From the NCBI GenBank assembly GCA_903913175.1, contig CAIWKF010000068.1, positions 1 to 10,376 on the forward strand: DNA of 10,376 nt. The letters run 5' to 3'. Of this stretch, positions 1,007 through 10,376 are shown piece by piece; the stretch's first letter is position 1; each line of letters begins with the position of its first letter. The position numbers and the translations under genes are program-made. The notes below the pieces were generated by a model. The model saw only the letters and a list, made by a program, of their open reading frames with translations, did not search any database and was not told the DNA's origin. The DNA is from Candidatus Staskawiczbacteria bacterium. GTDB taxonomy: Bacteria > Patescibacteriota > Minisyncoccia > Minisyncoccales > Staskawiczbacteraceae.

Positions 1007-1573
1007 TTATTCTTTTGACACTATCATTGTAAAACCCTTTGGTTCTCTTTTTAACTCTCTTTCAACTTTAATTGAAATTAGTTTGTCTATGGTTTCTAAA
1101 AACGATATAATTTTATTTTTAGCAAATTCTCCCATAGCTTTTTCTCTTCCCTTTAAAACCATGCTTACTTTTATTTTGTCTCCATCTTTTAAAAATCCTT
1201 CTGCTTGTTTGGCTTTTGTTTCTAGGTCATGTACTGAAATATTAAAACCAAGTCGTATTTCTTTTAGTTCTGTTCTAGTTTTTATTTTAGCTTTTCTTTC
1301 TTTTTTTTGTAAAGAATAAAGATATTTTCCATAATCTCCAATTCTACAAACAGGTGGCTCAACCTTTTCTGTAACTTGTATTAAATCTAAGCTTTTGGTC
1401 TTAGCCAAATCAATGGCCAAAAATATATCCATTACGCCCAGCTGTTCGCCAGTTTCTGAAATAACCCTCACCTCTTTTGCCTTTATATAATTGTTTATTA
1501 AAACTTTATTTTGCAAAGCTTGTTTTTTTAATATTAAAATATGTGGAATCGCCGAGATTGAACTCGGGTCCAA
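1007..1573 (-). CDS. infC: Translation initiation factor IF-3. The ORF as drawn starts at TTG 1571-1573. The true start may be a non-canonical ATT/ATA at about 1532-1549, as in many infC genes
   Basis: Motifs INNYIKAKEVRVISETGEQLGVM...VEPPVCRIGDYGKYLY...KEIRLGFNISVHDLETK match IF3 N- and C-domains. There is no ATG at the 5' end. The ORF-track M comes from TTG. ATT codons sit at 1547-1549 and 1538-1540. Confidence 0.88.
   Translation of the reverse strand: MDPSSISAIPHILILKKQALQNKVLINNYIKAKEVRVISETGEQLGVMDIFLAIDLAKTKSLDLIQVTEKVEPPVCRIGDYGKYLYSLQKKERKAKIKTRTELKEIRLGFNISVHDLETKAKQAEGFLKDGDKIKVSMVLKGREKAMGEFAKNKIISFLETIDKLISIKVERELKREPKGFTMIVSKE
1552..1567 (-). promoter_or_regulatory. GC-rich hairpin (CCGAG-6nt-CTCGG) at the extreme 5' end of infC, just upstream of the candidate ATT start codons
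   Basis: Read directly: ccgagattgaactcgg. It is GC-rich in an AT-rich context. Its position fits a translational autoregulation or initiation-region structure. Confidence 0.3.
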
Positions 1574-1889
1574 AAGTTTTTCTAAAATAATTCTACAAAT
1601 TTAGTTTGCTTTTTTGTTCGAGTAATAGATAAAAAACAAACGAAATTTCTATTACCTTATCTCCAATTGTTTTTAATAATTTCTCGGAGAAAAGAAATTA
1701 TCTATCCTAATTATATAACACCTTTAATCCACCTATTAGGAGTGAATGGCAAAGATGGCACTAAGCGTATGCTAGTGCTGGTTGTCTATTAAATAAATTG
1801 GCAACTATATGTTTTCCTGAAAGTTTTACCAGGTTTCAGAATACTGGATTTGCCTTATTTTAAAAAGAACAATTGTCGAAACTTGCGAT
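1574..1889 (-). promoter_or_regulatory. Long non-coding leader upstream of infC-rpmI-rplT. Candidate structured regulatory RNA (L20/IF3 autoregulatory-leader analogue)
   Basis: About 390 bp with no ORF of 60 aa or more on any frame. It contains mutually exclusive helices at 1815-1850 (cctg/cagg, ctgaaa/tttcag, ccag/ctgg) and an imperfect 11-bp stem at about 1600-1645. L20-mediated leader control of infC operons is established in other bacteria. Confidence 0.25.
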
Positions 1890-1925
1890 CCCGCCCGCAA
1901 CGCTTCGCGTAGCGATGCGGGCGGG
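1890..1925. repeat. GC-rich compound hairpin: 10-bp perfect stem CCCGCCCGCA/TGCGGGCGGG enclosing an inner CGCT-tcgcgt-AGCG hairpin
   Basis: Read directly. It is about 80% GC in a roughly 29% GC genome. It lies 40 nt downstream of the GIY-YIG stop (minus strand). There is no adjacent U-run, so it is not a canonical terminator. Confidence 0.6.
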
Positions 1926-1964
1926 CCCATACCATTACGCCAAACTCTGTGGGCGAAGTAAAAG

Positions 1965-2210
1965 TTATATGTCAGATAGTCTTCTATTTAAATAAGATCT
2001 ACCAAATCCAGTTTTCAAAGATTTTTCTCTTTTGATTGCATCCTCTAAAATATTACATGCTTCATAATATAATAGAGTAAAAGGTATTCGGTTTTTTGTA
2101 CAATCAACTCTTCCTGTATTATGTTCTTTAAATCTTCTTCTTAAATCGTTCGTATGACCAACATACAACTTTTCATCTTTTAAACTTTTTAAAACATAAA
2201 CATATTGCAT
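1965..2210 (-). CDS. Small GIY-YIG nuclease-domain protein (YhbQ/UPF0213-like)
   Basis: 81 aa. YVYVLKS...LYVGHTNDLRRRFKEHN...G...YT...RIPFTLLYYEA...AIKREKSLK matches the GIY-YIG core (GIY...YIG...R...E...N). The start lies 4 nt after the smpB stop, so co-transcription is likely. Confidence 0.85.
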   Translation of the reverse strand: MQYVYVLKSLKDEKLYVGHTNDLRRRFKEHNTGRVDCTKNRIPFTLLYYEACNILEDAIKREKSLKTGFGRSYLNRRLSDI

Positions 2211-2214
2211 GTTT

Positions 2215-2679
2215 TTATCTACTTAATTCACGGTTGATTTCCCTCTCGGTATCTCTTTGTTTGATTTTTTCTTTCTTATCAAACTTTTTTTTACCGCGGG
2301 CTAAAGCGAATTCAAGCTTTATCTTACCACTATTATCATAAACTTTCAAGGGTATTAAAGAAAAACCTCGTTCTTTTGACTTGTTGGCCAAATAATGTAT
2401 TTCTTTTTTATTTAAAAGTATTTTTCTTTGGCGCTCTGAGTTATAATCAGCTGGAGCGTTATTGGGTTGGTAGGCGGGTATTTTACTGCCCACTAAACTG
2501 GGTTCAAATTGCATATTAAAAACAATATAAGAACCAGTCAAAGAAATGTGCCCACCTCTTATTGATTTTACTTCTTGTCCTTGTAAAACAAAACCAGCCT
2601 CATATTTTTCTATAATTTCATAATCATAATATGCCTTTTTGTTCTCAGTATAAATTTTCTCGTTTTGTGTGTTTTTCAT
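2215..2679 (-). CDS. smpB: SsrA-binding protein SmpB
   Basis: YYDYEIIEKYEAGFVLQGQEVKSIRGG..SL.GSY and the C-terminal basic tail match SmpB. The ORF is open up to 2727. The ATG at 2677-2679 (MKNTQNEK...) gives the canonical N-terminus. The upstream extension is encoded by the GC-rich element. Confidence 0.88.
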   Translation of the reverse strand: MKNTQNEKIYTENKKAYYDYEIIEKYEAGFVLQGQEVKSIRGGHISLTGSYIVFNMQFEPSLVGSKIPAYQPNNAPADYNSERQRKILLNKKEIHYLANKSKERGFSLIPLKVYDNSGKIKLEFALARGKKKFDKKEKIKQRDTEREINRELSR

Positions 2680-2763: not shown

Positions 2764-2792
2764 TTGACAAGCAATAATTATTATGATATAAT
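2764..2792 (+). promoter_or_regulatory. Consensus sigma70 promoter TTGACA, 17-nt spacer, TGaTATAAT (extended -10) driving the SPFH gene
   Basis: Read directly: perfect -35 and -10 hexamers with a 17-nt spacer and a TG motif, about 100 nt upstream of ATG 2895. Confidence 0.6.
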
Positions 2793-2894: not shown

Positions 2895-4166
2895 ATGTCC
2901 GATGTAGTCAAATTTTTGCTCGTGTTGTGCACCGTAATGGTTACGTGTGCTATTTTGACCCTCCCCTTCGCCCTTTTACCATGGTGGATTGCATTAATCA
3001 TTGATGTAATCGTTGTGGTAACATTTCTGGTGTTTTTTATTCGGAATGGACTCCGAAAAATTCCTGCAGATCCTCCACACAAGGCTATCTTTGTTCTTTT
3101 GGGAGAAAGAACAAATACGGTTATTAATGAGGGGTGGCATTTTTTTCCGATTTGTCCATTTGTTTCTGACTACATCTTAATTAAAACCGAAAAAGTTAAT
3201 TATGATTTGCCAGAGCAACAAGTTCGAACTCCGGACAAGGCAATGGTGGCGATAAAGTCAAGTATCACTTTTATTCCAGGTATTGATAATAGTCCGGGAT
3301 CGTTCCTGTCCTATTTGAACTCTGGAGGAGAAGCTGGAGTAAAAAAAATTCTTCAGGATATCATTGACGATAGAACAAAGACATGGGCATCTTCAAACAC
3401 CGAAGGCCCTGCTTCTTGGACTGAGGCTCAGTCAATGAAGGATGATGTCCACAGTGTGCTTGTTAAGTCAATTTTAGGTGATGCGTTGCCTAATATTGAC
3501 TCGGACATTCCAACTGCTACATTGATGCGTTTTTTAAATGCTCCGAAGTCTCCACCGACTAAATATGATGCTACCAAAAAAAATGGGTGGGCAGAAATAA
3601 AAGGAGACGGTGATTGGAACTGGGACAAGCTTCAAGGCAAATTTGATGGTTATTCGGTTGAAAAGCAGAAAGCCATCAAGGCGGCCATCAAACAAAGGCG
3701 TGAAGATGTTCGTGCTATTCGCGAAGGCAAGGCAATATTTGGTGATGTGAGTTTGGGAATCACAATCATCAGGTTTACAGTTAATGATCTTAAGGTTCTT
3801 GGTGCGGTCGCCGAAGCCGCTGAAAAGGAAGAAAAGGAGAATCGCGAAAGAGCCGCAGAAACAGTTGAGATTAACAATGTGGCTGATAGGGCCAAGGATC
3901 TTAAAACTGCGCTTCCAGGACTTTCTTCTCAAGAGGCACTTGAGATTGTTCAAACCGAACGTGGAAAGATCTCAAAGAAGGTGATTCATGTCAGTGGCGC
4001 CCAAAGTGGGCTGGGTCATGACCTTCTTGGTCTGTCTGGTGCTGGCGGTCTCACCGGAGGTGGTGGCATGCCTACCGGACCTACTAGTGGATCTCGTGGG
4101 GCCGAACCAAAGATGACAAAGGAAAAGACTAAGAAGCCTTTTGTCAGGCCTGAGGATATGGTCTAG
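2895..4166 (+). CDS. SPFH/band-7 (stomatin/flotillin/HflK-like) membrane protein with an N-terminal TM hairpin, a coiled-coil EA/KE-rich segment and a Gly-rich C-terminal tail
   Basis: The SPFH core reads PADPPHKAIFVLLGERTNTVINEGWHFF...VSDYILIKTEKVNYDLPEQQVRTPDKAMVAI. The N-terminus has two hydrophobic helices. A strong SD (AAGGAGA) lies 7 nt before ATG 2895, and this in-frame ATG is preferred over the ORF-track start at 2841. GC is about 43-50% against a roughly 29% background. Confidence 0.85.
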   Translation: MSDVVKFLLVLCTVMVTCAILTLPFALLPWWIALIIDVIVVVTFLVFFIRNGLRKIPADPPHKAIFVLLGERTNTVINEGWHFFPICPFVSDYILIKTEKVNYDLPEQQVRTPDKAMVAIKSSITFIPGIDNSPGSFLSYLNSGGEAGVKKILQDIIDDRTKTWASSNTEGPASWTEAQSMKDDVHSVLVKSILGDALPNIDSDIPTATLMRFLNAPKSPPTKYDATKKNGWAEIKGDGDWNWDKLQGKFDGYSVEKQKAIKAAIKQRREDVRAIREGKAIFGDVSLGITIIRFTVNDLKVLGAVAEAAEKEEKENRERAAETVEINNVADRAKDLKTALPGLSSQEALEIVQTERGKISKKVIHVSGAQSGLGHDLLGLSGAGGLTGGGGMPTGPTSGSRGAEPKMTKEKTKKPFVRPEDMV

Positions 4167-4190
4167 GTTGTTGTCGCGTGTAACAACAAT
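4167..4190. other. Stem-loop TTGTTGT-cgcgtgta-ACAACAA immediately after the SPFH stop codon
   Basis: Read directly. It precedes the canonical terminator, and may be a processing or stability element or part of a tandem terminator. Confidence 0.4.
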
Positions 4191-4219
4191 GCCGAGCATG
4201 GATAGCTCGGCATTTTTTT
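4191..4219 (+). terminator. Rho-independent terminator GCCGAGC-atggata-GCTCGGC followed by a T8 run
   Basis: Read directly: a perfect 7-bp GC stem plus a T-run 25 nt after the SPFH stop. The reverse complement also gives a weaker terminator for the convergent 197-aa gene. Confidence 0.8.
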
Positions 4220-4243
4220 GTAGTTAAAATTTTACTCTTTTAT

Positions 4244-4837
4244 TTATTCAATTGGCTCTCTGTAAGTGTCATTTTTTTGAGGATCTTGTTGTTTTTCTTT
4301 TACTATTTCTAGTGTTTTTTTAAATATTTTTTCTGGTAATTCTATTTTTATGTCTGGTTTAGGGCTTTCTTGGTTTGGAAAAGATCCAATTGGTGGTCTT
4401 AATTTAGAAATAATTTCTGATTGAGTTTCTGGCGGTTTATATTTGTCCTCCTTAATTGGTAGCGGTTCTTTTAAGTTTTGTACAATTGGTAAAATTACTA
4501 ATTTTATATCATTAGCAATTTCTTCTGCATTTTTTTTTGAAACCATTAATGATTTTTCTACAGCATTAGCTATATCACCAAATTTAATTATTTTATCATT
4601 AATATCTTGTGCAATGGTAATAATTTTTTGCCCATTTGTTTCAACAGAATTTGAATTTTGTGTTTCTATTTGCTGCGAATTTTCTGAGGTATCAGGGCTT
4701 TCAAGTTCTTGCTCTGGGCTTGCCTCCCCCACAAAAAGTTCTTCTACTAAATTATATTTTTCTAATAAAGCAGAAATTGCCAAACCTAATTCTACTGAGA
4801 AAAATGTGTCATTTATTGTGTTATTTAATTCTTCCAT
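4244..4837 (-). CDS. Hypothetical acidic, Pro/Glu/Gln-rich soluble protein (197 aa), downstream of and probably co-transcribed with the 897-aa membrane protein gene
   Basis: A long ORF with no TM segments and net acidic charge, lying 27 nt downstream of the 4865-7558 gene on the same strand. No recognisable family. Confidence 0.65.
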   Translation of the reverse strand: MEELNNTINDTFFSVELGLAISALLEKYNLVEELFVGEASPEQELESPDTSENSQQIETQNSNSVETNGQKIITIAQDINDKIIKFGDIANAVEKSLMVSKKNAEEIANDIKLVILPIVQNLKEPLPIKEDKYKPPETQSEIISKLRPPIGSFPNQESPKPDIKIELPEKIFKKTLEIVKEKQQDPQKNDTYREPIE

Positions 4838-4864
4838 AATAATTTTAAATTACTTTTTATTACT

Positions 4865-7558
4865 TTAATCTTGTTTTTGTTGTTTTTCTGCAAGATCTAT
4901 CATTTTTTTTAAATGCTCTTCTGCTTTCCTCATTTTATTAATTTCTTCATTGTCTATTGGTACTGATATGCGCTCAGTTTCTGGCGCTAGGGAGTATTCG
5001 TTTACAGAAGGATTGTCCAAAGGGGTTTTTAAATTATTAGTTTCTGCTACAGGTTTTTTTGCATCGAAAAAATTTGCACCCTTTAAAGATTCTCGGTATT
5101 CTTCTCTTCTATTTTTTCCCCAAGCCATAGTGTCTTTAATTTTTTGAGTGCTTTCTAATTTATCAATTGACTGTACAGCCTTATCAATTTTATTTCCAAC
5201 ATAATTTTTTGGTATTTCAATAATTGACTCTGCTTTCTCTTTTGATGCCCTTAGCATGGACTTGGCTCTCCCTTTTGTTTTTGCCACAGTTCTTCTGACT
5301 TTTTGGTAATTCATTGGATTTAGCTTTCCTATAAATCCAACTTTATCAGCAAAATCTTCTACATTTTTAGTAGATGGCATGCCAAATTTTTTAGGATCTA
5401 GGCCGCCACTTTCATCTTCTAAAAGACCACCACCAGAAGAGCTTCCATCATCATCAGAATCATCGTCTGCTGAAGTAGAAGAAGCACCTTCATCTTCATC
5501 ATCTATGTCTTCATCTTTTTTCTTTTTTCTTTTTTTCCATTCACAGTTTCTAATAAATGCTGAGTTATAATTTAATTTTTTACCACCTTTTTCATCTTTA
5601 AGTTCATTTAATTTCTCTCTATGCGTTTTAGCATCTCCTACAAGTTCGAATTTACCATCATCTCTTTTTTTAACCCGAGATAATTCCATCATTTTGGCTT
5701 TTACTTTTTCTGGACCATTTGTTATAATTTCTGTCATTTGTTTTGTATCCATTGCGCCTAAGACTTCAGGGGTAAGAGTAAAGGCATTAAGATTTTTTCT
5801 AAGTTCAACAGCACCTTGTTTTTGAACAGTGTCGGTAATTGATTGATTTTCAGCACGCTCACGAATTTGTTTTTTATTAAGACCCTCCTCTGTCCATGCT
5901 TTGCTATTATTATCAACGATTTTATCAACTGCTGGGGCATCAAATTTAGACAAATTAGCATTCTTTCTCTTGTTTTCACTGGTAAGCGTAAATCCATTTT
6001 TCTGTGCCAAAGCAAGAGCTTTTTTGTCAGCCTTATTATTAGTATCAAACTCACCTTCTTCAACTAAAATTCTACCTATAGCAGACATTTCTTTTTGCTG
6101 AGAAGCTGTATACGGTAATCGCTGTGAGCCAAGTTTATCTTTGTAGGCCTTCAGATCTTTCATAGGCATGCTTGATAATCTATCATATTCTTTCTTAGTA
6201 CTTTCTTTTGTTCTTTGAGAATATGTTCCTTTAGGAACAAAACCCATAGCCTCACCAGCTCTGATTGATTGATTTTGCATGTATTTAGTAGCCTTTGATA
6301 CGCCGGTTACATCAGCAACTTTATTTGCTGTTCCTTTTAATGCTCCCATACCAGCTCCGCCCAGCATTGCTTTGCCTTTGTTAAAATAATTGCCAGCTTT
6401 GCTAGTAATCATATTAGCACCCATAGCACCAGTCTTTAAAGAGAATAAAAATCCAGCAATTAAAAAGAAAGAAGGCACAAGGTAGCCAAGCATTTCTAAT
6501 CCAGTACCAGAAGCTGAAGTTGCAGTACTATTTTTAGTTAAAAAATTCTCAGTCATTTTGCCTGACAAATATATAAAAAATGCTGCTGGTGCCCCAATAA
6601 TGCACCACTGAAAAAAATTATTCCACCACATTTTAAAATATTGATTTGTAAACGGGAATACATAAAACACAAAAGCCAATGGGGAGAGTATAACTAAAAT
6701 CCACAGCATAAGATATCTCATTATAAATAAAAAGAAAAATAAAAGAAAAACTATTGTTAACATTATATTATAAAAAACAGCACTAACTGCTTTGGCAATT
6801 ACCATAGATGAGTTGTTTGTATCCCACCCAGCCCAAATTTCAGTTAATTGATCTGTGACATTTTTTACAGCACTTTTTTCAAAAAATCCACCGTCGCCCT
6901 TAATAAAATAATCTGTAACTATGTTTGAACCGTCAATAAAAACTCCGCAAATTACTAAAGAAAAATTTATTAAAATAGCTGCACCAATTAATTTTGGTAA
7001 AAGTTTTTTTGCTTCATAGTCTTGAAATCTTAAAATTGTAGCAAGGGCAATTACCACAAAACCTAATACAACTATCATATTTGCAAGATTTTGCACAATT
7101 GGCCAACCAGTAGCAATTACTTTATTATCAAAACACGTATAACACACCGCAGAAGTTGTTCCAAGTACTGTAGAAAGTAAAGTTGCCGACATGCTTGCCA
7201 ATGCTCCTGTTGCGCTTATAATAGCGCTTATAACAAACAATAATAAACCAGTAGCAAACACCTTAGCTGGGTCACCGGCTATATTCGCAACAGCTTTATA
7301 ATTTGCATCTGCAGCGGCGCAAAGATCATTTCTATATGTTCCTGGCGTGGCTTTGCCCCAAGCCCATTCCCAACAAGCAGGGTGATAGCCAGCCGTTACA
7401 ATTTTTGGTATTATTATTCCGCTTAAAACAAAAAACAAAAGAATAAGAATAAAAAATCTTTTGTTTTTAAAAACGCTAGTAGTAATATGTGAGATGCTTT
7501 TTGAAAAGTTTTTAGATACTTGTTTTATATTGAGAAATATTTTTGATAAAATTTCCAT
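4865..7558 (-). CDS. Large polytopic membrane protein (897 aa). It has an N-terminal signal-anchor, a Cys/Trp-containing extracytoplasmic segment, about 8 TM helices, and then a roughly 520-aa charged low-complexity C-terminal domain with a poly-K block and a D/E/S-rich block. The architecture resembles VirB6/TrbL/TcpH-type proteins
   Basis: A single uninterrupted ORF. Hydrophobic stretches sit at about aa 36-58, 100-135, 160-180, 195-215, 265-305, 318-336 and 362-380. The C-terminal half is hydrophilic (KKRKKKKDEDIDDEDEGASSTSADDDSDDDGSSSGGG). Family assignment is inference from architecture only. Confidence 0.85.
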   Translation of the reverse strand: MEILSKIFLNIKQVSKNFSKSISHITTSVFKNKRFFILILLFFVLSGIIIPKIVTAGYHPACWEWAWGKATPGTYRNDLCAAADANYKAVANIAGDPAKVFATGLLLFVISAIISATGALASMSATLLSTVLGTTSAVCYTCFDNKVIATGWPIVQNLANMIVVLGFVVIALATILRFQDYEAKKLLPKLIGAAILINFSLVICGVFIDGSNIVTDYFIKGDGGFFEKSAVKNVTDQLTEIWAGWDTNNSSMVIAKAVSAVFYNIMLTIVFLLFFFLFIMRYLMLWILVILSPLAFVFYVFPFTNQYFKMWWNNFFQWCIIGAPAAFFIYLSGKMTENFLTKNSTATSASGTGLEMLGYLVPSFFLIAGFLFSLKTGAMGANMITSKAGNYFNKGKAMLGGAGMGALKGTANKVADVTGVSKATKYMQNQSIRAGEAMGFVPKGTYSQRTKESTKKEYDRLSSMPMKDLKAYKDKLGSQRLPYTASQQKEMSAIGRILVEEGEFDTNNKADKKALALAQKNGFTLTSENKRKNANLSKFDAPAVDKIVDNNSKAWTEEGLNKKQIRERAENQSITDTVQKQGAVELRKNLNAFTLTPEVLGAMDTKQMTEIITNGPEKVKAKMMELSRVKKRDDGKFELVGDAKTHREKLNELKDEKGGKKLNYNSAFIRNCEWKKRKKKKDEDIDDEDEGASSTSADDDSDDDGSSSGGGLLEDESGGLDPKKFGMPSTKNVEDFADKVGFIGKLNPMNYQKVRRTVAKTKGRAKSMLRASKEKAESIIEIPKNYVGNKIDKAVQSIDKLESTQKIKDTMAWGKNRREEYRESLKGANFFDAKKPVAETNNLKTPLDNPSVNEYSLAPETERISVPIDNEEINKMRKAEEHLKKMIDLAEKQQKQD

Positions 7559-7598
7559 AAACTTTATTTGCTAAAATTATTAAGGCATAAATTATATA

Positions 7599-7627
7599 AT
7601 TATAACTCCATTTTAAAAAACAAGCAA
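7599..7627 (-). promoter_or_regulatory. sigma70-like promoter on the minus strand (TTGCTT, 17-nt spacer, TATAAT) for the 897-aa gene
   Basis: Read directly as the reverse complement: aagcaa at 7622-7627 and attata at 7599-7604. The leader to ATG 7558 is about 35-40 nt. Confidence 0.45.
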
Positions 7628-7687
7628 ATCAATTTTTGATACCACCTGTGGATAACTATTCTAGGGTTGAGGGTGCAGTGTTGTACC

Positions 7688-8548
7688 TTAGCCCGTAAAA
7701 CTGCTTGACAATGCGATCCAGTTTTGAACTGACAATGTCTCAGCTCGCCTAGTGGGTTCTATGCCACATCCCAAAAGCCATTCTTTAGTCTTTGTTCTGT
7801 CTAACTTTAATTCTTTAGATAAATTATTTGCCAGTTGTTTTCTGGCATGAGAAAACCCAGCTTTAACTACTTTAAAAAATTTTTCTGCATCTTTTGGATT
7901 TTTATTAGGTTTTTGTGGAATGATTTTTATTATTGCTGAATCAACTTTTGGAGAAGGCAAAAAACAATTTTTAGAAACATAAGAAATTATTTTTGCCTCT
8001 GCATAATATTGCACAGAAACAGAAAGCAAACTCATGTTTGCCCCCACACTAGAAGTTTTTTTAAAACTTTGGTGTTGGGGCAAAGGGCAAATTCTTTGAG
8101 CTACTTCTTTTTGGACTAGTAAAACAATTTCTTGTGGTGGATTTTCTGCTTCTAGCAAAATTCTAATTAAATGAGAGGTAAGATAATAGGGAATGTTTGC
8201 TACAACTTTATAAACTTTATAACTTGATAACTTTATAACTTCTAATGCATCACCTTCAATTACTTCTATATTATCAAATTTAGATAAAGTTTCAGATAAA
8301 ATATTTATCATAGTGTGATCTTTTTCTATGGCAATTACGCGCTCTGCATTTTTTGCCAGCTCCTGCGTTAGCACACCAATACCTGGGCCAACTTCTAAAA
8401 CAACATCACTTTTATTTAAATCCCCAGCTTTTATTATTTTGTTTAAAATATTTTTATCAATTAAAAAATTCTGACCCATTGTTTTTGATGGTTTGGCGTC
8501 AAATTTTGCTAAAAGTTCTTTTATAACTGTGGGAGAAGTTAATTCCAT
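7688..8548 (-). CDS. rsmA: 16S rRNA (adenine1518/1519-N6)-dimethyltransferase RsmA/KsgA
   Basis: Motifs GQNFLIDKNIL, VLEVGPGIGVLT and VANIPYYLTS are SAM-MTase/KsgA signatures. The ORF is open to 8668, but ATG 8546-8548 (MELTSPTVIKELL...) gives the canonical length (286 aa). The upstream part overlaps the divergent promoter region. Confidence 0.88.
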   Translation of the reverse strand: MELTSPTVIKELLAKFDAKPSKTMGQNFLIDKNILNKIIKAGDLNKSDVVLEVGPGIGVLTQELAKNAERVIAIEKDHTMINILSETLSKFDNIEVIEGDALEVIKLSSYKVYKVVANIPYYLTSHLIRILLEAENPPQEIVLLVQKEVAQRICPLPQHQSFKKTSSVGANMSLLSVSVQYYAEAKIISYVSKNCFLPSPKVDSAIIKIIPQKPNKNPKDAEKFFKVVKAGFSHARKQLANNLSKELKLDRTKTKEWLLGCGIEPTRRAETLSVQNWIALSSSFTG

Positions 8549-8554
8549 ATAAAT

Positions 8555-8563
8555 ATTATAGCA
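8555..8563 (-). promoter_or_regulatory. Extended -10 (TGcTATAAT) on the minus strand only 6 nt upstream of the rsmA ATG. Suggests a leaderless or near-leaderless rsmA mRNA
   Basis: Read directly: gtgTGcTATAATatttatATG in reverse complement. There is no SD and no good -35. Confidence 0.4.
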
Positions 8564-8584
8564 CACAAAATACGGATAAAAAAC

Positions 8585-8614
8585 TTGACATAAATGCTTG
8601 GAAAATGATATTAT
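8585..8614 (+). promoter_or_regulatory. Promoter TTGACA, 18-nt spacer, TGaTATTAT (extended -10) for the LysM/M23 gene, divergent from rsmA
   Basis: Read directly. The predicted TSS at about 8621 coincides with ATG 8622, so this start would be leaderless. Confidence 0.45.
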
Positions 8615-8615
8615 T

Positions 8616-9740
8616 ATGGCAATGAAGAAAGTTATCTTTTTTCTCTCTAAAAAAATTAAAAGCAGCAAATCTCGGGGGTTATTTAAAAACCCTTTGTTTT
8701 ATTGTGGTATAATTTCTCCAATTTTGTTGGGAGTAATTTGTTTTGGAAGCAACAGTTTTGCAGGTTTTAACAACAGTAGCTTAAGATCTAGCGACATTGT
8801 TTTTTTTAATACTTTCTTTAATAAATATTCTGATAGTGAAAAAAACAATCCTTTTATGACAACAAATAACCAGTTGGCCTTAGAATCACCTGATTTAAAA
8901 ATAGTAGAAGATAATTGTCTTTGTGCAGTTTCTCCGCACAGCATTGTTTCAACAAAAGTTTTAGGAGCTATTTTTGGAGAGACCGTACAAAACACCAAAG
9001 AAATTCAAGAATATGTTGTACAACCTGGTGACACCATTGCTTCAATTGCGCAAAGTTTTGAAATTACACCAGATACAATTTTATGGGTAAATGATTTAAC
9101 TAAGAGTTCAACAATTAAAGTTGGCCAGTCTTTGGTTATTCTGCCAATTACTGGTTTATTACACATTGTAAAACAAGGAGATATTATAGGCGATATTGCT
9201 AAAAAATATAAAGTAAAAGTAGATGATGTAGTAGCTTTTAATAGTTTATCAAATGAGGGAGATATTTTTATTGGAGATATTTTAGTTGTTCCAGGAGGAA
9301 TAATGCCACAAAAAGCTGTACCACTAATTTCTGGACAAACACAACTTGCAGACAATTTTTTTATTTTTCCAACTCAAGGAACAATTACTCAGGGGTCACA
9401 TTTCTTTAATGCAGTAGATGTGGCCAATAAATGTGGAACGCCAATTTATGCAGCAGCTGGCGGGGTTGTGCAAAGGGTGAGATATGGCTGGAATTATGGT
9501 GGTGGAAACAATATTACAATTTTACATTCAAATGGAGTGGTTACATATTATGGCCACATTATGTCATCTTTTGTGATTCCTGGTCAAAGAATTGATGTTG
9601 GAGACAGGGTTGCTTTAATGGGCGGAGGAGTGGGAATGGCAGGAGCAGGTATTTCAACTGGTTGTCATACACATTTTGAAGTTATTGGAGCTAAAAATCC
9701 TTTGTCAAAATATTTGCTTGGCACAAAAATAAAATACTAA
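8616..9740 (+). CDS. Membrane-anchored LysM-LysM-M23 (LytM/lysostaphin-like) peptidoglycan endopeptidase
   Basis: There is an N-terminal TM/signal (LFYCGIISPILLGVICFGSNSFA). Two LysM repeats are present (YVVQPGDTIASIAQSF... and HIVKQGDIIGDIAKKY...). The M23 motifs HxxxD (SHFFNAVDV) and HxH (CHTHFEV) are present. The ORF-track start is TTG 8598; I prefer ATG 8616, or ATG 8622 if the mRNA is leaderless. Confidence 0.85.
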   Translation: MAMKKVIFFLSKKIKSSKSRGLFKNPLFYCGIISPILLGVICFGSNSFAGFNNSSLRSSDIVFFNTFFNKYSDSEKNNPFMTTNNQLALESPDLKIVEDNCLCAVSPHSIVSTKVLGAIFGETVQNTKEIQEYVVQPGDTIASIAQSFEITPDTILWVNDLTKSSTIKVGQSLVILPITGLLHIVKQGDIIGDIAKKYKVKVDDVVAFNSLSNEGDIFIGDILVVPGGIMPQKAVPLISGQTQLADNFFIFPTQGTITQGSHFFNAVDVANKCGTPIYAAAGGVVQRVRYGWNYGGGNNITILHSNGVVTYYGHIMSSFVIPGQRIDVGDRVALMGGGVGMAGAGISTGCHTHFEVIGAKNPLSKYLLGTKIKY

Positions 9741-9750
9741 ATTTATAAAT

Positions 9751-9782
9751 AAAAAAGCAGAAAATTAAATTTCTGCTTTTTG
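9751..9782. terminator. Bidirectional Rho-independent terminator (A-run, AGCAGAAA-loop-TTTCTGCT, T-run) between the convergent M23 and Nudix genes
   Basis: Read directly: aaaaaAGCAGAAAattaaaTTTCTGCTtttt. Confidence 0.7.
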
Positions 9783-9793
9783 CATACAAATAT

Positions 9794-10255
9794 TTATAAA
9801 TTATTTTTTATAATAAAATTGTTGGCTTTTTTAAGCAGCTCTTTAGCATTTTTAAAAGTAGTTTGTTTTATAGCCTCTTCATATATAAGCCACTTATAGT
9901 CTTGGTGTTCTGGTGAAAGTTTTATTTCTTTAGTTTTTGTTTCCGCTAAATAAAAAATTACAATTTTGAAAATCCAGGCAATTTTACCTTTTTCAAGGTC
10001 TTCTTTAGACATTTTTTCTTTATATTGCCTAAAAACATATTTAAAATATTCTCTAAATCCTTTTGCAATTTTTAAATCTAAAAGTCCTGCTTCTTCTTCT
10101 GTTTCTCTAAGTAAAGTTTGTTCTTCTGTTTCGTTTGGCTCAATGTGACCTTTGACAAAATCCCAATGCTTTTCTTTGTATTTTAAAAGCAGATAATAAA
10201 TTTTATCATTTTCTTTTCTATAAATTACTGCTCCCACAGATTTTTCTTGGGCCAT
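9794..10255 (-). CDS. Nudix hydrolase (MutT/Ap4A-hydrolase-like)
   Basis: The Nudix box GHIEPNETEEQTLLRETEEEAGL (Gx5Ex7REUxEExGU) is present in a 153-aa protein. Confidence 0.88.
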   Translation of the reverse strand: MAQEKSVGAVIYRKENDKIYYLLLKYKEKHWDFVKGHIEPNETEEQTLLRETEEEAGLLDLKIAKGFREYFKYVFRQYKEKMSKEDLEKGKIAWIFKIVIFYLAETKTKEIKLSPEHQDYKWLIYEEAIKQTTFKNAKELLKKANNFIIKNNL

Positions 10256-10376
10256 TTATATATTTTTTAATTATAATTTTTATGGTTCAACAACTGGTTT
10301 TTCTTCTATAAATAAGACGCGCTTTCTATTATTTAGGAAAATATCGTTTCTAACTATTAATAGTAAAAAAGCAGAA

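What the first reader, a model, noticed from the sequence alone, without database searches (positions are those of the whole stretch)
4865..7558. 897-aa protein: roughly 8-TM core plus giant charged tail (VirB6/TrbL/TcpH-like architecture?)
The N-terminal 380 aa have a signal-anchor. A short Cys/Trp-containing external segment follows (AGYHPACWEWAWGK...CAAAD). About eight hydrophobic helices come next, then a Gly-rich amphipathic stretch (GAMGANMITSKAGNYFNKGKAMLGGAGMGALKG). The C-terminal roughly 520 aa are hydrophilic and coiled-coil-like. They include a K7 block followed immediately by a D/E/S-rich acidic block and a GGG linker. This layout recalls the VirB6-like channel subunits of Gram-positive conjugation systems, such as TcpH, which have 8 TM helices and a long cytoplasmic tail. 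It also recalls TrbL proteins with C-terminal extensions. However, no VirB4 or VirD4 ATPase or relaxase is nearby. It is therefore either a solitary or degenerate T4SS-like component, or a different and novel membrane machine.
Basis: inference. Interest (0 to 1): 0.6.

Follow-up and report, generated by a model that had tools for sequence, protein, structure and literature searches.

The report
Patescibacterial extended VirB6 secretion-system subunit
The 897-residue membrane protein is the VirB6-type subunit of the type IV secretion system that ultra-small Patescibacteria carry in their chromosomes, which is a known kind of gene, but here it sits apart from its ATPase genes and, with two neighbouring genes, has been swapped as a block between near-identical strains.

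Summary
The ORF (4865-7558, minus strand, 897 aa) is real and belongs to a family of several hundred Parcubacteria/Staskawiczbacteria proteins (Pfam TrbL_3, PF19590). Its hydrophobic core matches TrbL/VirB6 by profile. By predicted fold, TrwI/VirB6 of plasmid R388 is the best natural match. It shows no detectable similarity to TcpH or PrgH. In 38 of 47 related genomes with enough flanking sequence, PrgI(VirB3)-like, TraC-like and VirB4-like ATPase genes lie 2-8 kb downstream. In this lineage that module is absent from the window, and a second assembly confirms the junction. The "giant tail" is not one coiled coil. It holds a flexible Gly/Lys linker, a family-conserved compact helical domain (about 420-640), a lineage-specific disordered basic/acidic stretch and terminal helices. 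It is probably cytoplasmic. Verdict: a new member of a known kind, an "extended VirB6" of the non-conjugative patescibacterial T4SS. Two additional results: (1) the co-transcribed 197-aa gene belongs to a conserved partner family ending in D-x-Y-R-E-P-I-E; (2) the Band_7 / partner / VirB6 block (window 2985-7537) is replaced by a roughly 32%-identical allele in a strain whose flanks are 96-100% identical.

The parts
4865..7558 (-). Whole gene: extended VirB6 / TrbL_3 family protein, 897 aa
   Evidence: ORF; 654 homologues at E<=0.001; PF19590 precomputed for the exact protein; PF04610 E=4.6e-5 on residues 239-367
7394..7558 (-). Residues 1-55: K/R-rich cytoplasmic N-terminus plus first hydrophobic helix (signal anchor)
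   Evidence: Hydropathy and charge; family mean net charge +3.8 for the N-terminal segment
7274..7393 (-). Residues 56-95: probably external segment with C62/C80 and the WEWAW motif, subclade-specific
   Evidence: Sequence; net negative across the family, Cys present only in a subclade; low pLDDT
6431..7273 (-). Residues 96-376: VirB6/TrbL-like hydrophobic helical core
6302..6430 (-). Residues 377-419: Gly/Lys-rich flexible linker
   Evidence: Sequence; pLDDT below 50 for 395-420; family net charge +6.7 for 377-440
5639..6301 (-). Residues 420-640: family-conserved compact all-helical domain with no known family
   Evidence: pLDDT 87-97; alignable in all 73 members with conserved G419 E436 G444 G522; present in 106/125 family proteins in 1-3 copies; no Pfam or PDB match; found only behind VirB6 cores
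5189..5587 (-). Residues 658-790: lineage-specific disordered region with KKRKKKK (nt 5516-5536), the acidic block (nt 5447-5515) and SSSGGG
   Evidence: pLDDT 31-49; no match in the top 120 homologues; DNA
4871..4951 (-). Residues 870-896: confident C-terminal helix
   Evidence: pLDDT about 89-93
4244..4837 (-). Co-oriented 197-aa partner gene starting 27 nt after the VirB6-like stop; acidic, no TM segment, ends in DTYREPIE
   Evidence: Spacing; iterative HMM recruits 43 of 50 sequences in the set; C-terminal motif nearly invariant; one such ORF in 61 of 86 sequences searched; no Pfam or PDB match
2895..4166 (+). Convergent SPFH/Band_7 membrane protein (423 aa from the ATG; longest ORF starts at TTG 2841)
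   Evidence: PF01145 E=8.6e-10; the same position and orientation in relatives; called as 423 aa on other contigs
4188..4214 (.). GC-rich 10-bp-stem hairpin between the convergent Band_7 and partner genes; likely bidirectional terminator
   Evidence: Terminator scan
2764..2792 (+). Perfect sigma-70 consensus (TTGACA-17-TATAAT with TG) upstream of Band_7, conserved in the sister strain
   Evidence: Promoter scan; identical in L092
7538..7657 (-). First 7 codons and 100 nt of upstream region of the VirB6-like gene, 100% identical between haplotypes; right edge of the variable cassette
   Evidence: blastn and alignment
2985..7537 (.). Strain-variable cassette: Band_7 body, partner gene and VirB6-like gene, replaced by a divergent allele in L092
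   Evidence: No nucleotide similarity inside, 96-100% identity outside; boundaries; allele affinities
7688..8668 (-). rsmA/ksgA, the conserved upstream neighbour of the family
   Evidence: PF00398 E=1e-54; RsmA upstream in 55 of 65 loci
8616..9740 (+). LysM + M23 peptidase, a conserved divergent neighbour and candidate cell-wall hydrolase (VirB1-like role)
   Evidence: Pfam; upstream in 55 of 65 loci; the paper notes M23/LysM-containing VirB1 homologues (PMC12102498)

Best explanation
[quoted passage not shown] Shown: family membership, VirB6 fold, and regular linkage of the family to PrgI(VirB3)-like, TraC-like and VirB4-like ATPase genes. Inferred by analogy with R388 TrwI/VirB6: the hydrophobic core (residues 96-376) oligomerises in the cytoplasmic membrane above the VirB4 ATPase. 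There it forms the platform where VirB2-like pilins are recruited and assembled and/or where substrate crosses the membrane. Inferred from charge distribution: both the N-terminus and the C-terminal 520 residues face the cytoplasm. The flexible Gly/Lys linker tethers a family-conserved helical domain (420-640). That domain most plausibly docks cytoplasmic partners: the ATPase module and/or the co-transcribed 197-aa protein, whose invariant C-terminal DxYREPIE peptide looks like a docking tag. The basic/acidic disordered stretch and terminal helices are lineage-specific. The gene works as a unit with the partner gene and the convergent SPFH/Band_7 gene, and this trio is exchanged as one cassette between strains. 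The ATPase module must be encoded elsewhere in this genome.
For: - Profile: PF04610 TrbL E=4.6e-5 on the N-terminal 440 aa. Homologues P0016, P0030 and P0047 exceed the gathering score. PF19590 TrbL_3 is precomputed for the exact protein and for most homologues.
- Family HMM against reference proteins: TrwI 15.6 bits, P about 4e-7; controls score nothing.
- Synteny: M23/RsmA/VirB6-like/partner/Band_7/PrgI/TraC-like/VirB4-like in L001, L003/4, L005 and L007. VirB4-like lies within 1.9-7.7 kb in 38 of 47 genomes with at least 8 kb downstream. In the exceptions other T4SS-cluster genes are still nearby.
- Literature: VirB6 homologues are widespread in Patescibacteria, 304 of 480 near virB4, and relaxases are mostly absent (PMC12102498). 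The T4SS is essential in Southlakia epibionticum (PMC10633639). The 'extended VirB6' concept is in PMC12857230. VirB6 is a pentameric stalk base and pilin assembly site (PMC9259494).
- Topology: family mean net charge is +3.8 at the N-terminus and +6.7 just after the last hydrophobic helix.
- Integrity: all family-invariant residues are present.
- Partner.
Against: - No VirB4, VirB3, pilin or coupling-protein gene is in the window or in the extensions seen in sister-strain contigs, which reach GreA/HD/MFS on one side and S20 on the other.
- This protein's own PF04610 score (23.7 bits) is below the gathering score (25.9), and the full-length scan finds nothing.
- Loop charges do not fit a simple 8-TM topology: loop 3 and R281 are positive although an 8-TM model places them outside.
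- Oligomeric state, partner contacts and substrate are all inferred, not shown.
Confidence: 0.82

Rival explanations
1. Same family, but the hydrophilic C-terminal region is extracellular, as in F-plasmid TraG-type extended VirB6 proteins. It would reach through the wall to contact the host cell or act in recognition or exclusion. Surface exposure would explain the hypervariability.
For: The tail and the whole cassette are highly variable between close strains, a pattern typical of exposed proteins. The number of true membrane spans is uncertain: only 2 of 7 helices span the membrane in TrwI, and loop charges do not fit a clean 8-TM model.
Against: The segment right after the last hydrophobic helix is strongly positive across the family (9.5 K+R against 2.8 D+E in 64 residues), and the N-terminus is also positive, which favours N-in/C-in. 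The conserved partner protein has no signal peptide or TM segment and is co-transcribed.
Confidence: 0.12
2. An orphan remnant: the T4SS ATPase module has been lost in this lineage, and the VirB6-like gene is decaying or has taken on a T4SS-independent membrane role together with the SPFH protein.
For: No ATPase module lies within the window or the extended sister-strain contigs. This arrangement occurs in none of the 80 other genomes sampled. 8 of 47 related loci also lack an adjacent VirB4.
Against: The 897-aa ORF is intact and retains every invariant residue. The partner is intact with its invariant C-terminal motif. Two deeply divergent but fully intact alleles are maintained at the locus, which argues for selection and against decay. 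176 of 480 patescibacterial VirB6 homologues are not near virB4 in genomes that do have virB4 (PMC12102498). The T4SS is nearly universal in the phylum.
Confidence: 0.05
3. Not a T4SS component at all: an unrelated transporter or a novel membrane machine whose helices only resemble VirB6 by composition.
Against: Independent lines agree: two Pfam TrbL families, TrwI as the top natural structural match in two programs, a family HMM that picks TrwI but not control membrane proteins, and conserved synteny with VirB3/VirB4-like genes. No transporter family matched in Pfam or NCBIfam.
Confidence: 0.01

Closest known systems
VirB6/TrbL family of T4SS membrane subunits (Pfam PF04610; structural reference TrwI of R388, PDB 7O3V/8RT9)
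   Same: Hydrophobic multi-helix core with the same predicted fold; weak but specific profile similarity; the family is genomically linked to VirB3- and VirB4-like genes.
   Different: 11-16% identity to TrwI. It carries an extra N-terminal anchor, and a roughly 520-residue hydrophilic C-terminal region that TrwI lacks. The host is a monoderm-type cell with no VirB7/9/10 outer-membrane complex. No VirB5 gene is recognisable nearby.
Patescibacterial T4SS VirB6 homologues (Pfam PF19590 TrbL_3; Quinonero-Coronel et al. 2025, PMC12102498; essential T4SS of Southlakia epibionticum, Wang et al. 2023, PMC10633639)
   Same: This is the family the protein belongs to. It is chromosomal, lies next to rsmA/ksgA, has no relaxase, and in most relatives is linked to PrgI, TraC-like and VirB4-like genes.
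   Different: In this lineage the ATPase module is not adjacent. The conserved cytoplasmic domain, the DxYREPIE partner, the SPFH neighbour and the strain-level cassette swap are not mentioned in the text searched (one search found no occurrences of 'SPFH' or 'Band').
'Extended VirB6' proteins (F-plasmid TraG, Rickettsiales RvhB6/VirB6 paralogues; concept from Alvarez-Martinez and Christie 2009 as cited in PMC12857230)
   Same: A VirB6-like hydrophobic domain plus a large hydrophilic C-proximal domain whose role is unknown.
   Different: No sequence relation between the hydrophilic parts was found. Here the extension is predicted to be cytoplasmic. My recollection, which I did not check in any paper or tool, is that the F TraG extension is periplasmic.
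TcpH (pCW3) and PrgH (pCF10), VirB6-like proteins of Gram-positive conjugation systems
   Same: Overall layout: a polytopic N-terminal part and, in TcpH, a long C-terminal hydrophilic region; a monoderm-type T4SS context.
   Different: No detectable sequence-profile similarity (hmmsearch and hhalign score like negative controls). TcpH's VQQPW motif is absent. This agrees with the published finding that only 12 of 480 patescibacterial VirB6 homologues were retrieved with the PrgH profile.

Membership tests
VirB6/TrbL superfamily (PF04610, PF19590) | Significant match to the family profile HMM | tested here: met
   PF19590 TrbL_3 is on record for the exact 897-aa protein. PF04610 gives E=4.6e-5 and 23.7 bits on the N-terminal 440 aa, just under the gathering score of 25.9. 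Close homologues reach 26.8-29.4 bits. The local hmmscan never reported PF19590, so that hit rests on the precomputed table.
VirB6/TrbL superfamily (PF04610, PF19590) | VirB6 fold: a bundle of long, mostly hydrophobic helices as in TrwI | tested here: met
VirB6/TrbL superfamily (PF04610, PF19590) | Encoded with VirB4 (and VirB3) genes of a T4SS | tested here: inconclusive
   Met for the family: 38 of 47 related loci have a VirB4-like gene 1.9-7.7 kb downstream. Not met in this window or in sister-strain extensions. The rest of the genome is not available.
VirB6/TrbL superfamily (PF04610, PF19590) | Oligomeric (pentameric) membrane platform contacting VirB4, VirB5 and VirB2 | not testable with these tools
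   No multimer prediction or experiment is available here. The feature comes from PMC9259494.
Extended VirB6 | VirB6-like hydrophobic domain plus a large hydrophilic central or C-proximal domain | tested here: met
   The core is residues 96-376, followed by about 520 hydrophilic residues that include a folded domain at 420-640. The definition is taken from PMC12857230.
TcpH/PrgH-type VirB6-like proteins of Gram-positive conjugative systems (MPF_FATA) | Sequence-profile similarity to PrgH or TcpH | tested here: not met
   Family HMM and hhalign against pCF10 PrgH and pCW3 TcpH give scores equal to those of the controls TetA(P), TcpD, TcpE, VirB3 and VirB5. The references were single sequences, so sensitivity is limited.
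TcpH/PrgH-type VirB6-like proteins of Gram-positive conjugative systems (MPF_FATA) | TcpH VQQPW motif. Its functional importance is my recollection and was not checked in the literature; its presence in pCW3 TcpH was verified here. | tested here: not met
   VQQPW is at residue 242 of pCW3 TcpH and is absent from the query. The family's conserved motif at the equivalent early-core position is GWPIV(R/Q)(D/N)LANM.
Conjugative (DNA-transfer) T4SS | Relaxase and type IV coupling protein (VirD4) encoded in the locus | tested here: not met
   Neither is in the window. None is recognised in the relatives' loci, whose listed Pfam families are only PrgI, TraC-like, DUF87/P-loop_TraG/AAA_10 and T4SS_pilin. 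This is consistent with PMC12102498 and PMC10633639.

The most novel reading that the evidence does not exclude
The VirB6-like gene, its DxYREPIE partner and the convergent SPFH gene form a self-contained, recombination-swappable 'specificity cassette' of the patescibacterial T4SS. Strains with 96-100% identical flanks carry alleles only about 32% identical, exchanged between conserved promoters and the first 7 and 29 codons. This would imply strong diversifying or frequency-dependent selection on the inner-membrane platform and its adaptors, for example host or substrate specificity, or escape from phages or host defences that target the machine. The cassette is physically uncoupled from the conserved ATPase module.
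Probability: 0.3. Interest if true: 0.65.

Novelty: new member of a known kind. Interest (0 to 1): 0.4.

Why it matters
The identity itself is ordinary. VirB6 homologues of the patescibacterial T4SS are already catalogued, and the machine is known to be essential for the epibiotic lifestyle in one cultivated species. The value here is in the anatomy. The 'extended' part of this VirB6 family turns out to be a conserved, confidently folded cytoplasmic domain plus a variable spacer. It comes with a previously unannotated partner protein that carries an invariant C-terminal peptide. Both are concrete handles for asking how a T4SS without a coupling protein or relaxase selects its substrate. The strain-level replacement of the VirB6/partner/SPFH block suggests that this part of the machine, and not the ATPase, is where specificity evolves. 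If that holds, it bears on host range in a very large, mostly uncultivated bacterial radiation.

Tried and rejected
- Full-length Pfam and NCBIfam scans found nothing. The TrbL hit appears only when the tail is removed.
- The local hmmscan never reports PF19590, although the precomputed tables do. I could not resolve this. The model may be absent from the local copy.
- A PDB sequence search with the profile of alignment A1 returned only low-complexity matches to the tail (Mediator, p85, ribosomal proteins) and was discarded.
- TcpH and PrgH relatedness was tested and rejected.
- The partner family has no Pfam or PDB match.
- tblastn with the relatives' PrgI, TraC-like and VirB4-like proteins found no remnants in the window.
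- A metagenome scan with a 40-mer from the conserved 5' region found nothing. Look-ups via SmpB, S20 and NUDIX revealed only two haplotypes.
- An iterative HMM from the window's SPFH protein recruited only 9 sequences (the window protein plus 8 loci), so SPFH proteins at this position are heterogeneous.
- An assembly chimera at the Band_7/SmpB junction was considered and rejected, because an independent assembly has the same junction.
- A simple 8-TM topology was considered but does not fit all loop charges. I claim only 'N-in, C-in'.
Full report
**1. The observation**

The window carries an ATG-initiated ORF at 4865-7558 on the minus strand, encoding 897 aa.
- a K/R-rich N-terminus (7 K+R in the first 35 residues) followed by a hydrophobic anchor at about 35-55;
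- a Cys/Trp-containing segment at residues 56-84;
- hydrophobic helices up to about residue 376;
- the Gly-rich stretch at 377-409;
- a very hydrophilic C-terminal 518 residues (99 K+R, 82 D+E).

The 'K7' block is actually KKRKKKK (675-681, DNA aaa aaa aga aaa aag aaa aaa). The acidic block (682-704) and SSSGGG follow it. The protein is not a chance ORF. It has 654 homologues at E<=0.001 among the 8000 candidates scored and 444 relatives in species-representative genomes. These are mostly labelled Staskawiczbacteria, Nealsonbacteria, Parcubacteria or Patescibacteria. The window is about 30% G+C. Its other genes are housekeeping: S20, L20, L35, IF3, tmRNA, SmpB, RsmA, a LysM-M23 peptidase and a NUDIX hydrolase. 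It also carries a GIY-YIG nuclease gene and an SPFH/Band_7 gene.

**2. What it is**

- **Profile evidence.** A full-length Pfam scan gave nothing. The N-terminal 440 aa alone hit TrbL/VirB6 (PF04610) at E=4.6e-5 and 23.7 bits, just under the gathering score of 25.9. Homologues P0016, P0030 and P0047 exceed it. The precomputed annotation for this exact protein and for most homologues is PF19590 (TrbL_3).
- **Reference comparison.** An HMM of the family's hydrophobic core, scored locally against reference proteins, singles out TrwI (15.6 bits, P about 4e-7; hhalign P=0.003). TcpH of pCW3 and PrgH of pCF10 score like negative-control membrane proteins. TcpH's VQQPW motif is absent.

The VirB6/TrbL assignment therefore holds, and the specific TcpH comparison does not. 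This agrees with the published survey: 480 VirB6 homologues were detected across Patescibacteria, and only 12 of them were retrieved with the PrgH profile (PMC12102498).

**3. Context**

Five relatives sampled through exact-protein look-ups show the same gene order:
- LysM-M23 peptidase (divergent);
- RsmA, sometimes followed by a PaaX_M-like gene;
- the VirB6-like gene;
- a 140-200-aa protein;
- a Band_7-like protein on the opposite strand;
- PrgI (VirB3-like), TraC-like and a 600-aa VirB4-like ATPase (DUF87/P-loop_TraG/AAA_10);
- large proteins and pilin-like genes.

Among 80 loci from species-representative genomes, 47 have at least 8 kb downstream of the core match. Of those, 38 carry the VirB4-like gene 1.9-7.7 kb beyond the core (median 4.4 kb). 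One more has PrgI and TraC-like at +9 kb, and 8 lack the module within 10 kb. Even these 8 carry homologues of the roughly 1000-aa cluster protein nearby, mostly inverted. RsmA and the M23 peptidase lie upstream in 55 of 65 loci.

The window keeps the block M23 / RsmA / VirB6-like / 197-aa / Band_7. It then runs straight into smpB, a GIY-YIG gene, ssrA, infC, rpmI and rplT. It holds no remnant of PrgI, TraC-like or VirB4-like genes. None of the 80 other genomes has this arrangement. It is not an assembly artefact, because an independent contig (L092) has the same junction. A further contig (L091) extends the other side to GreA, an HD hydrolase and an MFS transporter without any T4SS gene. So in this lineage the VirB6 block is separated from the ATPase module. 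The published survey also found 176 of 480 VirB6 homologues away from virB4.

**4. Anatomy of the 'tail'**

BLAST against the top 120 homologues shows strong conservation over residues about 30-450. Conservation fades by about 650 and is absent beyond 660. The full-length AlphaFold2 model (73 sequences, mean pLDDT 74) divides the tail as follows:
- a flexible linker at 395-420 (pLDDT below 50);
- a compact bundle of about 12 short helices at about 420-640 (pLDDT 87-97);
- a disordered stretch at 658-790 that contains the basic run, the acidic block and the Gly run;
- helices at 786-826 and 870-896.

The 420-640 domain is alignable in all 73 family members (conserved G419, E436, G444, G522). 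It is detected in 106 of 125 family proteins in one to three copies, and protein length scales with copy number. It has no Pfam match and no meaningful PDB match by sequence or fold. In an exhaustive search of 1.84 billion representatives it is seen only behind VirB6 cores. The tail is therefore linker + conserved domain + variable spacer, and not one long coiled coil.

Across the family, the N-terminal segment has a mean net charge of +3.8, and the 64 residues after the last hydrophobic helix have +6.7. The first external segment is net negative. By the positive-inside rule, both ends are most likely cytoplasmic. The internal loops do not fit a clean 8-TM model. In the solved R388 structure only two of VirB6's seven long helices cross the membrane (PMC9259494). 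I therefore claim only N-in/C-in.

**5. Likely mechanism**

Shown: family, fold and genomic association.

Inferred by analogy with R388: the core oligomerises in the membrane above VirB4. It forms the platform where VirB2-like pilins are recruited and assembled and/or where substrate crosses the membrane. Patescibacterial T4SS loci encode VirB2-like pilins, lack relaxase and coupling proteins, and are essential for epibiotic growth in Southlakia (PMC10633639, PMC12857230). Tubular structures that may be T4SS pili have been seen at a Minisyncoccota-host interface (bioRxiv 10.64898/2026.06.21.733656).

I propose that the tethered cytoplasmic domain docks the ATPase module and/or the co-transcribed partner.

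**6. The partner**

The 197-aa ORF (4244-4837) starts 27 nt after the VirB6-like stop. It is acidic and has no hydrophobic segment. An iterative HMM seeded with it converges on 43 of the 50 sequences in the set, which comprises 49 ORFs found just downstream of VirB6-like genes plus the seed itself. The alignment has an almost invariant extreme C-terminal motif, D-x-Y-R-E-P-I-E. A six-frame regular-expression scan finds one ORF of 105-200 aa with that ending in 61 of 86 sequences (the window plus 85 loci). In every case it lies downstream of the VirB6-like gene on the same strand. It has no Pfam or PDB match. A conserved terminal peptide on an otherwise divergent protein suggests a docking tag. 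This is inference.

**7. A strain-level cassette**

Comparing the window with L092 and L091 gives the following picture:

| Window segment | Match to sister-strain contigs |
|---|---|
| 14-1892 | 99.7% DNA identity |
| 1893-2215 (GIY-YIG gene) | absent from L092 |
| 2216-2984 | 96.4% |
| 2985-7537 | no nucleotide similarity |
| 7538-7657 | 100% |
| 7717-10376 | 99.6% |

The left edge falls after the first 29 codons of Band_7, which are identical at the protein level with synonymous differences. The right edge falls after the first 7 codons (MEILSKI) of the VirB6-like gene. In this interval L092 encodes a 399-aa Band_7, a 140-aa partner ending in DSYREKI, and an 821-aa VirB6-like protein.

The two VirB6-like proteins are 32% identical. 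The Band_7 proteins are unrelated beyond residue 29. Each allele has closer relatives in other species. The best Band_7 matches elsewhere are 59% (window allele) and 68% (L092 allele). The best VirB6 matches elsewhere are 56% (window allele) and 41% (L092 allele). Both VirB6 alleles match the core and tail-domain HMMs strongly and keep 16 of the 18 conserved positions checked.

The convergent trio therefore behaves as one exchangeable unit between conserved promoters and 5' ends. Only two haplotypes were found, so the generality of this pattern is unknown.

**8. Comparison with known systems, and novelty**

The protein is a member of the VirB6/TrbL superfamily, specifically the patescibacterial TrbL_3 family. 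Architecturally it is an 'extended VirB6'. It is not demonstrably related to TcpH or PrgH. The kind is known, so I file it as a new member of a known kind.

Four points are not mentioned in the text I searched: the conserved cytoplasmic domain, the DxYREPIE partner, the recurrent SPFH neighbour, and the cassette swap. A search of PMC12102498 found no occurrences of 'SPFH' or 'Band'. No paper in the library mentions PF19590.

**9. Verdict**

- Identity as a VirB6-type T4SS subunit: confidence about 0.8.
- Cytoplasmic tail: likely.
- Docking role of the domain and partner: speculative.
- Interest: moderate (0.4), carried mainly by the partner motif and the cassette polymorphism.

Noticed in passing
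window 4244-4837 (-): The 197-aa ORF downstream of the VirB6-like gene belongs to an unannotated family that accompanies VirB6-like genes in most related loci. It ends in a near-invariant D-x-Y-R-E-P-I-E at the extreme C-terminus. It has no Pfam or PDB match.
   Followed up: yes
window 2985-7537, compared with L092 2664-6744: The whole Band_7 / partner / VirB6-like block is replaced by a deeply divergent allele (VirB6 32% identical, Band_7 unrelated after residue 29) in a strain whose flanks are 96-100% identical. The edges lie just inside the 5' ends of the two convergent transcription units.
   Followed up: partly
window 1541-1892 (-) and 1965-2210 (-): A tmRNA gene (Rfam 104.7 bits, tag ANLFNRQPALAYA) lies between infC and smpB. 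An 81-aa GIY-YIG nuclease gene sits between ssrA and smpB (window 1893-2215) and is absent from the sister strain L092, so it looks like a recent insertion.
   Followed up: partly
L091 4582-4938 and L092 6928-7284: The sister strain carries a 118-aa 23S_rRNA_IVP/bAvd-like four-helix-bundle gene plus GTGAGTAG repeats between rsmA and the VirB6-like gene. The window lacks both. bAvd-type proteins can accompany diversity-generating retroelements, but no reverse transcriptase was seen.
   Followed up: no
window 2764-2792 (+), 2895-4166 (+), 4188-4214: The SPFH/Band_7 gene has a perfect extended sigma-70 consensus promoter. Its G+C is higher (0.40-0.45) than the rest of the window (about 0.30). A strong hairpin lies between it and the convergent partner gene. 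Band_7-like genes occupy this position in roughly 33 of 80 related loci but belong to heterogeneous subfamilies.
   Followed up: partly
L056 and L070 (both from MAG CAYIVF01): One genome carries two VirB6-like loci. One is followed by Band_7 on a short contig. The other is followed by PrgI, TraC-like and VirB4-like genes. Paralogous VirB6 modules therefore exist in one genome.
   Followed up: no
L011-L090 record titles: Many public MAGs that carry this Parcubacteria-type gene are labelled 'Candidatus Saccharibacteria', and a few 'Gammaproteobacteria', 'Methanosarcinales archaeon' or 'Pacearchaeota'. These are probably mislabelled bins or contaminating contigs.
   Followed up: no
window 4865-7558; The local Pfam hmmscan never reports PF19590, although the precomputed tables list it for this protein. 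The PF04610 hit appears only when the hydrophilic tail is removed from the query.
   Followed up: partly
window residues C204 and C319 of the VirB6-like protein (nt about 6947-6949 and 6602-6604): Two cysteines inside hydrophobic helices are about 91% conserved across the family. The CxxC at 139-142 and the C62/C80 pair occur only in a subclade. Whether C204 and C319 are close in the 3-D model was not checked.
   Followed up: no
contig '-EC18a2_' (sample ERZ1426746): A 7.5-kb contig shares Band_7 (423 aa), SmpB, GIY-YIG and IF3 with the window. It then continues into TonB-related and beta-eliminating-lyase genes instead of L35, L20 and S20. This is either another rearranged strain or a chimeric assembly.
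   Followed up: no
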